Source: Escherichia coli O157:H7 (GTDB lineage: Bacteria; Pseudomonadota; Gammaproteobacteria; Enterobacterales; Enterobacteriaceae). From it: a stretch of 64,000 nt of DNA. Below, piece after piece: positions 41,101 through 44,100 of this stretch (position 1 is the stretch's first letter; each line of letters begins with the position of its first letter). The position numbers are program-made. Location: assembly GCF_013167455.1 (NCBI RefSeq), contig NZ_CP038328.1; one strand, written 5' to 3'.

Positions 41101-44100
41101 AAAGGGGAGGCATTGCGCCTCCCGTTAAAACATTAACCGCGCAGCTGCACCACGCCGTCTTTCACTCGCGCTTCGTAATGTTTGACGGAAAACTGTTCGT
41201 CTTCCATGCACAAGCCGTCGCTTAAGCGAAAACGCTGTTTTTTCAGCGGGCTGGCGACCCACAGCTCGCCCTGGTGTTCCGCAATCAGTCCGCGTGACAG
41301 CACGCTGGACTCGAAGAACGGGTCGATGTTGCTGATCGCAAACACCTGATCGCTGTGATACGGGCGGAAAATCGCGACCTGCTCGTCACCTAACAGCGCG
41401 CAGACGCCGGTTTCAGGCAGGATGTCATCGATTTTGCAGATGTCTTTCCACTGGCTCATGCGTTGTCCTCCACCAGAGTTACTGGGATACGTTCATACGG
41501 CGTTGCCGGACGGTGCTGTTCGCGCTCTGGCACCATCTGCACGTTCGGGTCACGCTTGTCGCTGTTGATGAAGTGTTTGAAGCGAGTCTGCGCAGACGGC
41601 GTATTGACCGTTTCAGTCCACTCACACACTACCGCTTCACGCAGGCGCGCCATCTCTTCTTCCAGATGTGCGTTCAGCCCCAGTTTGTCGTCAATGATCA
41701 CCGCTTTCAGGTAATCGATGCCGCCTTCGAGGTTTTCTAACCACGGTGCGGTACGCGTCAGTTTGTCGGCAGTACGGATGTAGAACATCATGAAGCGGTC
41801 GAGATATTTGATCAGCGTTTCGCGATCGATATCCGCCGCCAGCAGATCCGCATGACGCGGTTTCATGCCGCCGTTACCGCAAACATACAGGTTCCAGCCT
41901 TTTTCAGTGGCGATAATACCCACGTCTTTACCCTGAGCTTCTGAACATTCACGGGTACAGCCGGAGACACCGAACTTCATTTTGTGCGGCGTACGGATGC
42001 CTTTGTAGCGGTTTTCCAGTTCCACGCCGAGGCCGACGCTGTCGCCAACGCCGTAGCGGCACCAGGTGCTACCCACGCAGGTTTTCGCCATACGCAGTGC
42101 TTTCGCATAGGCATGACCGGTTTCGAAGCCGGCTTCAATCAGCTGACGCCAGATCTCCGGCAGATCGTCTTTCTGTGCGCCAAACATCGCCAGACGCTGG
42201 GAGCCAGTGATCTTGGTGTAGAGATTAAATTCACGCGCGATACGACCTACCGCCATCAGCCCTTCCGGGGTGATTTCACCGCCCGGAGAGCGCGGGATCA
42301 CCGAGTAGGTGCCGTCTTTCTGGATGTTAGCGAGGAAGTTGTCGTTAGAATCCTGCAGCGGAGTATGTTCCGGCTTCAGAATGTATTCGTTCCAGCAGGA
42401 GGCCAGCAGCGAACCGACGGTCGGTTTACAAACTTCACAACCGTAACCTTTGCCGTGTTTCGCCAGCAGTTCTTCGAAGGTTTTAATGCCTTCAACGCGG
42501 ATCAAATGGAATAGTTCCTGACGCGAATAAGCAAAGTGTTCGCACAGGTTGTTGTTAACTTCGATGCCCTGTTTCGCCAGTTCCGCGTTCAGTACCTGAG
42601 TGACCAGCGGGATACAGCCACCGCAGCCAGTACCCGCTTTGGTTTCGGCTTTCAGCGCCGCAACGGTGTGACAGCCTTTGTTGATGGCAGCAATCAGATC
42701 ACCTTTGGTGACGTCGAAGCAGGAGCAGATTTGCGCGCTGTCCGGCAGTTTATCAACACCGATAGACGGCTTACCGCTACCCGAGTGCGCCGGCAGAATC
42801 AGAGAATCCGGGTTTTCCGGCAGCTCGATAGCATTCAGCACCAGTTGCAGCAGGTTGCCGTAGTCGCTGGTATCGCCCACCAGTACCGCACCGAGCAGGG
42901 TTTTGTTGTCTTCGCTGACAATAAGGCGTTTGTAGATCTCTTTGCTTTCGTCGAGGTAAACGTAGCTACGTGCGCCAGGCGTGCGACCGTGCGCATCACC
43001 AATACCGCCTACGTCTACGCCCAGCAGTTTCAGCTTGGCGCTAAGGTCAGCACCTTCAAAGGCGTTTTCGCTACCGAGAATATGGTCAACGGCGACCTGC
43101 GCCATTTTGTAGCCTGGTGCTACCAGACCAAATACACGGTTGTTCCAGCTTGCGCATTCACCGATGGCGTAGATATCCGGATCGGAAGTCTGGCAGGAAT
43201 CATTAATGACAATACCCCCACGCGGAGCAACGTCCAGACCACACTGGGTTGCCAGCTTATCGCGCGGACGGATACCGGTAGAGAAGACGATAAAGTCGAC
43301 TTCCAGTTCGCTGCCGTCGGCAAAACGCATGGTTTTACGCGCTTCAACACCTTCCTGCACAATCTCAAGGGTGTTTTTGCTGGTGTGAACGCGCACGCCC
43401 ATGCTCTCGATTTTGCGACGCAGCTGCTCGCCACCCATCTGATCAAGCTGTTCTGCCATCAGCATAGGGGCAAATTCGATAACGTGGGTTTCAATACCTA
43501 AGTTTTTCAGCGCGCCAGCGGCTTCCAGACCTAACAGGCCGCCACCAACAACGGCACCGCGTTTGCTGCGACGGGCGCAGGATTCAATGGCGTTGAGGTC
43601 TTCAATGGTGCGATAGACAAAGCAGTCCTGAGTATCAGAACCTTTAATTGGCGGGATCCACGGGTAGGAACCGGTCGCCATGATCAGCTTGTCATAAAAA
43701 ACGGTACGTCCGGCGCTGGAGTGAATCACCTTCTCCTGACGGTTGATGGTGATAGCGCGTTCGCCGACCAGAACTTTGATGCCGTGTTTCTCGTAGAAGC
43801 CTTCGCGCACCAGCGACAGCTCTTCGGCGGTGTGGTGAGAGAAGTAAGACGAGAGGTGTACGCGGTCATAAGCGATGCGCGGTTCTTCACAGAAAACGGT
43901 AATATCAAAGTTGGCCGCATCAGATTTATCAAGAAGATCTTCGATAAAGCGATGGCCGACCATACCGTTACCGATAATTGCGAGTCTGACTTTGCTCATT
44001 TTTGCCTCGATTTCTTTTCTATTACCGCCTACCTTAACGATTCAGCAACCCCGCTTATTGATGTAAATCAAATTCACCTTTATATACTCCTTAAGGGGTA

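What the first reader, a model, noticed from the sequence alone, without database searches (positions are those of the whole stretch)
44058..44071. Perfect FNR palindrome upstream of nirB
TTGATgtaaATCAA matches the FNR consensus exactly and sits at the distance from the nirB ATG expected for a class II activator site. It confirms that the anaerobic nirBDC-cysG control region is intact in this strain. Known biology, included as a positional anchor.
Basis: partly seen in the sequence, partly recalled or inferred. Interest (0 to 1): 0.15.

Follow-up and report, generated by a model that had tools for sequence, protein, structure and literature searches.

The report
Known FNR site of nirB promoter
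The 14-base palindrome is the well-characterised binding site through which the oxygen sensor FNR switches on the E. coli nitrite reductase operon; it is intact here, so the finding is correct but ordinary.

Summary
TTGATGTAAATCAA lies at 44058-44071 and is the only perfect TTGAT-N4-ATCAA in the 64 kb window (0.07 expected by chance). nirB is on the minus strand, with its ATG at 43999-43997. The site centre is 65.5 bp upstream of that ATG. With the 23-24 nt leader reported for K-12, the centre falls at -41.5, the class II position.

The window is E. coli O157:H7-lineage DNA. From -71 to the ATG it is base-for-base identical to K-12 MG1655, where FNR activation and FNR ChIP occupancy at -41.5 are published. 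The NarL/NarP 7-2-7 site (TACCCCT TA AGGAGTA, 44100-44085) is centred at -69.5. It differs from K-12 by one base (-72 A>C) and still fits the heptamer consensus. That 82-bp allele is exact in 3774 of 5425 complete E. coli genomes, against 1198 for the K-12 allele.

Among 102 other species, 89 carry a perfect site 64.5-65.5 bp from the nirB ATG. The half-sites are 98% conserved, the spacer 82% and the flanks 66%. nirB, nirD, nirC and cysG are all full length.

Verdict: confirmed, already known, low interest. The only mildly new point is that K-12 carries the minority NarL-heptamer allele.

The parts
44058..44071 (-). FNR binding site TTGATttacATCAA (as read on the nirB strand). The centre at 44064.5 is -41.5 relative to the inferred start and 65.5 bp from the ATG.
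   Evidence: sequence, unique in the window; identical to K-12; perfect in 89 of 102 other species at 64.5-65.5 bp from the ATG; PMC3688515.
44085..44100 (-). NarL/NarP 7-2-7 inverted heptamers TACCCCT-TA-AGGAGTA, centred at 44092.5 (-69.5). The C at 44095 (-72) is A in K-12.
   Evidence: position -69.5 as in PMC10853779; outer TAC...GTA triplets conserved across species; allele frequencies.
44031..44036 (-). -10 hexamer TAAGGT (-13..-8). There is no recognisable -35, because the FNR site overlaps that position.
   Evidence: Sequence; no sigma-70 consensus promoter found in 43900-44400, as expected for an activator-dependent promoter; strongly conserved columns. The identification as the -10 element is from my own knowledge of the K-12 nir promoter.
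44023..44023 (-). Inferred transcription start (+1), giving a 24-nt leader 44023..44000 with Shine-Dalgarno GAGG at 44008..44005.
   Evidence: Inferred from FNR at -41.5 (PMC3688515) and a start 23-24 nt before the ATG (PMC4216584), transferred through 100% sequence identity to K-12. Not measured in this strain.
44107..44112 (-). Conserved AAATCA core (-89..-84) at the position of the IHF I site (-88), which NarL/NarP displaces.
   Evidence: Near-invariant columns; IHF at -88 per PMC10853779.
44033..44044 (-). TGAATC|GTTAAG imperfect palindrome overlapping the -10 element; a candidate Cra (FruR) operator.
   Evidence: Sequence and conserved columns. The assignment to Cra rests on my recollection of Tyson et al. 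1997 and was not checked with the tools.
41456..43999 (-). nirB CDS (847 aa), intact.
   Evidence: one difference from K-12, L791V.
41133..41459 (-). nirD CDS (108 aa), intact.
   Evidence: identical to K-12.
40201..41007 (-). nirC CDS (268 aa), intact.
   Evidence: S95T relative to K-12.
38809..40182 (-). cysG CDS (457 aa, GTG start), intact.
   Evidence: identical to K-12.
44227..44252 (-). Terminator-like hairpin followed by a T-rich tail just after the tsgA stop (tsgA CDS 44261..45442). It would insulate the nir promoter from upstream read-through.
   Evidence: 10-pair stem, 8 G-C pairs; tsgA ORF.

Best explanation
The palindrome is the FNR operator of the nirBDC-cysG promoter (pnir). Without oxygen, dimeric [4Fe-4S]-FNR binds TTGATttacATCAA centred at -41.5, where it overlaps the missing -35 element. 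From there it recruits and activates sigma-70 RNA polymerase as a class II activator, using the weak -10 hexamer TAAGGT. Transcription starts about 24 nt before the nirB ATG.

FNR-dependent activation is held down by IHF (-88) and Fis bound upstream. Nitrate or nitrite relieves this when phosphorylated NarL or NarP binds the 7-2-7 heptamer pair at -69.5 and displaces IHF.

Shown here: the motif, its uniqueness in the window, its geometry, its identity to K-12, its conservation across genera, and the intact operon. Taken from published K-12 experiments: FNR binding, the transcription start, and the NarL/IHF/Fis mechanism.
For: There is one exact consensus match in 64 kb, against 0.07 expected. 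It lies 65.5 bp upstream of the ATG of an 847-aa ORF annotated nirB, followed by nirD, nirC and cysG. Window positions -71 to +41 are 100% identical to K-12 MG1655.

K-12 has FNR at -41.5 of nirBDC-cysG with a ChIP-seq peak and FNR-dependent expression, the consensus is TTGATnnnnATCAA, and 19 of 23 FNR-activated promoters have sites at -41.5 +/-4 (PMC3688515). The transcription start is 23-24 nt before the ATG (PMC4216584). NarL at -69.5 displaces IHF at -88 and relieves Fis repression (PMC10853779).

A 7-2-7 pair, TACCCCT TA AGGAGTA, sits exactly 28 bp upstream of the FNR centre. No sigma-70 consensus promoter is present, as expected for an activator-dependent promoter.

Phylogenetic footprint: of 102 other species with at least 130 bp upstream, 89 have a perfect site and 13 have 1-2 mismatches. 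The sites are centred 64.5-65.5 bp from the ATG in Enterobacterales and 70.5-72.5 bp in Photobacterium. Nine different spacers occur. Major-allele frequency is 0.98 for the half-sites, 0.82 for the spacer and 0.66 for the flanks. The 82-bp core is 100% identical in 3774 of 5425 complete E. coli genomes.
Against: Nothing in the sequence argues against it. The limits are that FNR binding, the transcription start and anaerobic induction were not measured in this strain, and that fnr, narL, narP and narXQ lie outside the window, so their integrity is unknown. Five substitutions relative to K-12 lie upstream of -71 (at -72, -123, -157, -190 and -191). They could change the modulation by NarL/NarP, IHF, Fis or H-NS, but not FNR binding itself. 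The cross-species conservation comes from related genomes, so part of it reflects shared ancestry.
Confidence: 0.95

Rival explanations
1. The FNR site is functional, but the promoter's output in this lineage differs quantitatively from K-12. The cause would be the -72 A>C change in the NarL/NarP heptamer and/or the substitutions at -123, -157, -190 and -191 in the region bound by nucleoid proteins. This is a modification of the main explanation, not an alternative to FNR binding.
For: Five substitutions relative to K-12 all lie upstream of -71. With -72C the left heptamer (TACCCCT) differs from the reverse complement of the right one (TACTCCT) at one position instead of two. A comparable single-base promoter difference changes nrf regulation in O157:H7 (PMC5434802).
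Against: Both A and C at that heptamer position fit the consensus TACYYMT as I recall it. Inner heptamer positions vary freely across species, with 30 or more variants, while the outer TAC/GTA triplets are fixed. No expression data exist for either allele.
Confidence: 0.15
2. The palindrome is a CRP site, or a site for another CRP/FNR-family protein, rather than an FNR site.
For: CRP and FNR recognise related 22-bp palindromes. The crp gene lies in the same window, which is coincidental.
Against: Both half-sites read TTGAT/ATCAA and not the GTGA/TCAC core of the CRP consensus (that consensus is from my own knowledge). These ten bases are 98% conserved across about 100 species. K-12 ChIP-seq and expression data assign the site to FNR (PMC3688515).
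Confidence: 0.01
3. It is a chance palindrome with no regulatory role.
For: 7 of 100 shuffled windows contain at least one perfect match.
Against: The position is exact relative to nirB. The sequence is identical to an experimentally characterised promoter. The site is conserved at the same distance in 89 of 102 other species while the spacer and flanks drift.
Confidence: 0.01

Closest known systems
E. coli K-12 nir operon promoter (pnir): FNR at -41.5, NarL/NarP at -69.5, IHF at -88, plus Fis and H-NS (Busby/Cole laboratory work, as cited in PMC10853779 and PMC3688515)
   Same: This is the same locus. The FNR site, the spacing to the -10 element and ATG, the leader, the -10 hexamer, the right-hand NarL heptamer and the IHF I core are all identical base for base. 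The gene order tsgA-nirB-nirD-nirC-cysG is also the same.
   Different: There are five substitutions upstream of -71: -72 A>C in the left NarL/NarP heptamer, -123 A>G, -157 C>T, and -191/-190 TC>AA. The window's 82-bp core allele is the common one in E. coli (3774 of 5425 genomes, against 1198 for the K-12 allele).
Other class II FNR-activated promoters (narG, dmsA, nrfA, ydfZ)
   Same: Each has an FNR dimer site centred at -41.5 that overlaps the -35 region (PMC3688515 Table 1). nrfA and narG are also co-regulated by NarL/NarP and nucleoid proteins.
   Different: The nirB site matches the consensus perfectly at 10 of 10 positions, whereas many other sites are partial matches, for example ydfZ TTGATaaaaAACAA and frdA TCGATctcgTCAAA. 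At pnir, NarL acts as an anti-repressor by displacing IHF rather than as a direct recruiter of polymerase.
EHEC O157:H7 nrf promoter variant (Godfrey et al. 2017, PMC5434802)
   Same: It is a precedent that single-base differences between K-12 and O157:H7 in a nitrite-reductase promoter can change regulation.
   Different: That change improves the -10 hexamer and is specific to O157:H7. Here the core promoter is unchanged, and the -72C allele is widespread across E. coli rather than EHEC-specific.

Membership tests
FNR class II activator site | Match to the FNR consensus TTGAT-N4-ATCAA | tested here: met
   10 of 10 specified positions match at 44058-44071. The consensus is as quoted in PMC3688515.
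FNR class II activator site | Site centred near -41.5 relative to the transcription start, overlapping the -35 region | tested here: met
   The centre is 65.5 bp from the ATG. The K-12 start lies 23-24 nt before the ATG (PMC4216584), and the sequence is identical to K-12 from -71 to the ATG, which gives -41.5 as listed for nirBDC-cysG in PMC3688515. The start was not mapped in this strain.
FNR class II activator site | Activator-dependent core promoter: a recognisable -10 element and no good -35 | tested here: met
   No sigma-70 consensus promoter was found in 43900-44400. TAAGGT lies at -13..-8 with T1, A2 and T6 of TATAAT.
FNR class II activator site | FNR occupancy and FNR-dependent anaerobic transcription | not testable with these tools
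   This is shown only for K-12 in the literature (ChIP-seq peak and expression, PMC3688515). It transfers to the window by sequence identity.
FNR class II activator site | Contact positions conserved in orthologous promoters | tested here: met
   89 of 102 other species have perfect sites and 13 have 1-2 mismatches. Major-allele frequency is 0.98 for the half-sites, 0.82 for the spacer and 0.66 for the flanks.
NarL/NarP 7-2-7 site | Two inverted heptamers separated by 2 bp | tested here: met
   TACCCCT-TA-AGGAGTA at 44100..44085. The 7-2-7 definition is in PMC10853779.
NarL/NarP 7-2-7 site | Each heptamer fits TACYYMT | tested here: met
   The left heptamer is TACCCCT and the reverse complement of the right one is TACTCCT; both fit. 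The consensus string is from my own knowledge and was not found in the papers held.
NarL/NarP 7-2-7 site | Centred at -69.5 at pnir | tested here: met
   The centre at 44092.5 is 28 bp upstream of the FNR centre, which gives -69.5, matching PMC10853779.
NarL/NarP 7-2-7 site | Binding of phosphorylated NarL/NarP and nitrate/nitrite induction | not testable with these tools
   Literature exists only for the K-12 allele (-72A). The -72C allele is untested as far as the searched library shows.

The most novel reading that the evidence does not exclude
The laboratory reference promoter (K-12 pnir, -72A) carries a minority allele of the left NarL/NarP heptamer. The -72C allele, found here and in about 70% of complete E. 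coli genomes, makes the 7-2-7 site more symmetric. It could bind NarL/NarP more tightly and so shift the nitrate/nitrite dose-response of nirB in most natural E. coli compared with what was measured in K-12.
Probability: 0.15. Interest if true: 0.3.

Novelty: already known. Interest (0 to 1): 0.08.

Why it matters
It matters mainly as an anchor. It fixes the strand, gene order and identity of the window as E. coli O157:H7-lineage DNA, spanning rpsG to nfuA on the minus orientation. It also shows that anaerobic nitrite detoxification and assimilation through NirBD keeps its textbook control region in this strain. The cross-species footprint made here is a clean illustration of a transcription-factor site under selection, with invariant half-sites and a free spacer, but it adds no new biology. 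The one point worth a specialist's glance is that nearly all mechanistic work on pnir used the rarer -72A heptamer allele.

Tried and rejected
- **Papers not held.** Browning et al. 2008 (PubMed 18757534, PMC2580697) and Wang & Gunsalus 2000 (PMC94705) could not be read. I therefore could not check the exact coordinates of Fis I/II/III and IHF II, or which of them the -123 and -157 substitutions touch. Those assignments are left out of the parts list.
- **Rfam scan.** A gathering-threshold scan of the whole window found nothing, so there is no annotated RNA element in the nirB leader.
- **Second FNR-like sequence.** TTTATACAAATCAG is centred at -89.5 with 2 mismatches. I considered it as a possible tandem FNR site and rejected it. 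It reaches 2 mismatches only in Escherichia, and the part conserved elsewhere is AAATCA, the IHF I core.
- **CRP-site and chance-palindrome readings.** Both were considered and rejected; see the rival explanations.
- **Prior work on -72.** Literature searches for a study of the -72 polymorphism or of pnir in pathogenic strains found none. The library lacks most subscription-journal papers, so this is weak evidence of absence.

Full report
**Observation.** The + strand of the window reads TTGATGTAAATCAA at exactly 44058-44071. A pattern search for TTGATNNNNATCAA on both strands finds this one site only. Dinucleotide-preserving shuffles give a mean of 0.07 matches, and 7 of 100 shuffles contain at least one. 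With one mismatch allowed there are 6 sites against 2.2 expected. The motif is real and at the stated coordinates. Its count alone is only modestly improbable, so the case for function rests on position and conservation.

**Context.** The nearest ORF is on the minus strand: 41456..43999, 847 aa, with ATG at 43999-43997 and an N-terminus of MSKVRLAIIGNG. It is followed on the same strand by ORFs of 108 aa (41133..41459), 268 aa (40201..41007) and 457 aa (38809..40182). It is preceded by a 393-aa ORF (44261..45442). A 431-bp query across the intergenic region is 100% identical to many E. coli O157:H7 chromosomes and matches 5425 of 5426 complete E. coli genomes, always under tsgA and nirB. The K-12 and O157:H7 annotations give tsgA-nirB-nirD-nirC-cysG with identical gene lengths.

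The whole window is the reverse complement of O157:H7 PV15-279 positions 4291540-4355539, at 99.96% identity.

**Geometry.** The site centre (44064.5) is 65.5 bp from the A of the ATG. Class II geometry is defined from the transcription start, not from the ATG. The K-12 start is reported 23-24 nt before the ATG (PMC4216584), and FNR is listed at -41.5 for nirBDC-cysG (PMC3688515). Placing +1 at 44023 satisfies both reports. It also puts the hexamer TAAGGT at -13..-8 (44036..44031) and leaves a 24-nt leader with GAGG 5-8 nt before the ATG. A consensus scan finds no sigma-70 promoter in 43900-44400, as expected for a promoter that depends on an activator overlapping the -35 region. The same scan finds a G+C-rich hairpin with a T-rich tail at 44252..44227 just after the tsgA stop. 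This is a plausible tsgA terminator that would insulate pnir.

**Comparison with K-12.** Aligning 341 bp (window 44300..43960, minus strand) with MG1655 gives five differences, all upstream of -71:
- window 44214/44213 (AA against TC; -191/-190)
- window 44180 (T against C; -157)
- window 44146 (G against A; -123)
- window 44095 (C against A; -72)

Everything from -71 through the FNR site, the -10 element, the leader and the first 41 bases of nirB is identical. The published K-12 experiments therefore transfer directly to the FNR site.

**NarL/NarP site.** This is the position given for NarL at pnir (PMC10853779; 7-2-7 definition). The -72 A>C change falls in the left heptamer. Both versions fit TACYYMT (consensus from my own knowledge). 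The C makes the two half-sites differ at one position instead of two.

An 82-bp query covering -82..-1 is 100% identical in 3774 of 5425 genomes for the window allele and in 1198 for the K-12 allele. The window therefore carries the common E. coli allele and K-12 the rarer one.

**Conservation across species.** A degenerate DNA pattern for the NirB N-terminus retrieved 106 loci from one-genome-per-species contigs. They are mostly Enterobacterales (Citrobacter, Enterobacter, Klebsiella, Kluyvera, Salmonella, Rahnella, Hafnia and others), plus Photobacterium. Of the 102 with at least 130 bp upstream, 89 carry a perfect TTGAT-N4-ATCAA, 7 have one mismatch and 6 have two. The centres lie 65.5 bp (74) or 64.5 bp (18) from the ATG, and 70.5-72.5 bp in Photobacterium.

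Among the 90 perfect sites (the window included) nine different spacers occur: TTGC 38, TTGT 22, TTAC 18, TTGA 5, TCAC 3 and four found once each. Over 94 unique sequences, mean major-allele frequency is 0.98 for the ten half-site positions, 0.82 for the spacer and 0.66 for the 13-bp flanks. This is the signature of a protein-contact palindrome under selection. The outer TAC...GTA triplets of the NarL heptamers and an AAATCA block at -89..-84, the position of IHF I at -88, are also near-invariant. Because the genomes are related, part of this conservation is inherited. The contrast between the half-sites and the drifting flanks is what carries the argument.

**Operon integrity.** All four structural genes are full length without internal stops. 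Relative to K-12 the only amino-acid changes are NirB L791V and NirC S95T, and the nirD-nirC spacer differs by one base. The genes fnr, narL, narP, narX and narQ lie outside the window and were not examined.

**Mechanism.** What is shown here is the sequence, the geometry, the identity to K-12 and the conservation. From published K-12 work: under anoxia FNR binds at -41.5 and activates RNA polymerase as a class II activator (PMC3688515). IHF at -88 and Fis suppress this activation. Phosphorylated NarL or NarP bound at -69.5 displaces IHF and relieves the suppression (PMC10853779; PMC3688515). RyhB represses nirB and NarS represses nirC post-transcriptionally (PMC8139620). A TGAATC|GTTAAG palindrome over the -10 element resembles the Cra operator that I recall from Tyson et al. 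1997; I could not check this.

**Rivals.** A chance palindrome and a CRP site are both excluded for practical purposes by the position, the TTGAT (not GTGA) half-sites, the conservation and the K-12 data. The only live variant is quantitative. The five upstream substitutions, especially -72C, might alter NarL/NarP or nucleoid-protein modulation, as a single-base difference does at the O157:H7 nrf promoter (PMC5434802). I found no data on this, and I put the chance of a measurable effect at about 0.15.

**Verdict.** This is the textbook pnir FNR site: already known and of low interest (0.08). It is useful as a positional anchor.

**Side observations.** Several items elsewhere in the window are listed separately. 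A private kefG frameshift in a T-run is the only one that looks unusual.

Noticed in passing
window 56849-57402 (+), T-run at about 56984-56989: kefG is split into a 63-aa ORF and a 121-aa ORF by a T7>T6 homopolymer contraction (GATTTTTTATT). The exact 81-bp sequence occurs in only 1 of 5368 complete E. coli genomes (NCTC9112), and that record is not among the O157:H7 records listed as identical to the window elsewhere. It is either a private inactivating frameshift or a homopolymer sequencing error.
   Followed up: partly
window 59178-59180 (+), kefB 57402-59180: An amber codon (CAG>TAG) removes the last 9 residues of KefB (592 aa against 601 aa). It is shared by 294 complete genomes; the records listed are O157:H7-type. 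The reference used for comparison (PV15-279) has the full-length version.
   Followed up: partly
window about 23721 (+), hofM 22970-23764: A 1-bp deletion relative to PV15-279, 28 bp before the hofM stop, changes and lengthens the C-terminus, which then overlaps hofN. It is shared by 287 genomes and looks like a lineage marker rather than an error.
   Followed up: partly
window 34048-34836 (-): frlD (fructoselysine 6-kinase) is interrupted by an internal stop, giving ORFs of 111 aa and 144 aa. It is annotated as a pseudogene in O157:H7 PV15-279.
   Followed up: partly
window 5768-5781 (feoA ATG at about 5578, minus strand): A one-mismatch FNR-like site, TTGAGccacATCAA on the feoA strand, is centred about 196 bp upstream of the feoA ATG. 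K-12 has an FNR ChIP-seq peak upstream of feoA, where FNR activation is masked by Fur (PMC3688515). This is probably the second genuine FNR site in the window.
   Followed up: partly
window 44095 (-72 of pnir): The C at this position in the left NarL/NarP heptamer is part of the majority E. coli allele (3774 of 5425 genomes identical over -82..-1). The K-12 laboratory allele, with A, is exact in only 1198 genomes.
   Followed up: yes
window 44106-44119 (-), centred at about -89.5 of pnir: TTTATACAAATCAG is an FNR-like sequence with 2 mismatches that overlaps the conserved IHF I core. It reaches that score only in Escherichia, so it is probably not an FNR site.
   Followed up: yes
window 4834-4847, 7888-7901, 21501-21514, 46785-46798: Four further one-mismatch FNR-like sequences map, by coordinate conversion to the PV15-279 annotation, inside feoB, yhgF, mrcA and fic. 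Including the feoA-upstream site, that is five one-mismatch sites (6 matches in all with the perfect nirB site, against 2.2 expected), and no promoter context is evident for these four.
   Followed up: no
window 1-64000: No Rfam family reaches its gathering score anywhere in the window. The window differs from O157:H7 PV15-279 by 24 substitutions and 3 single-base indels, including one in the nirD-nirC spacer at 41034, where the window agrees with K-12 in length.
   Followed up: partly
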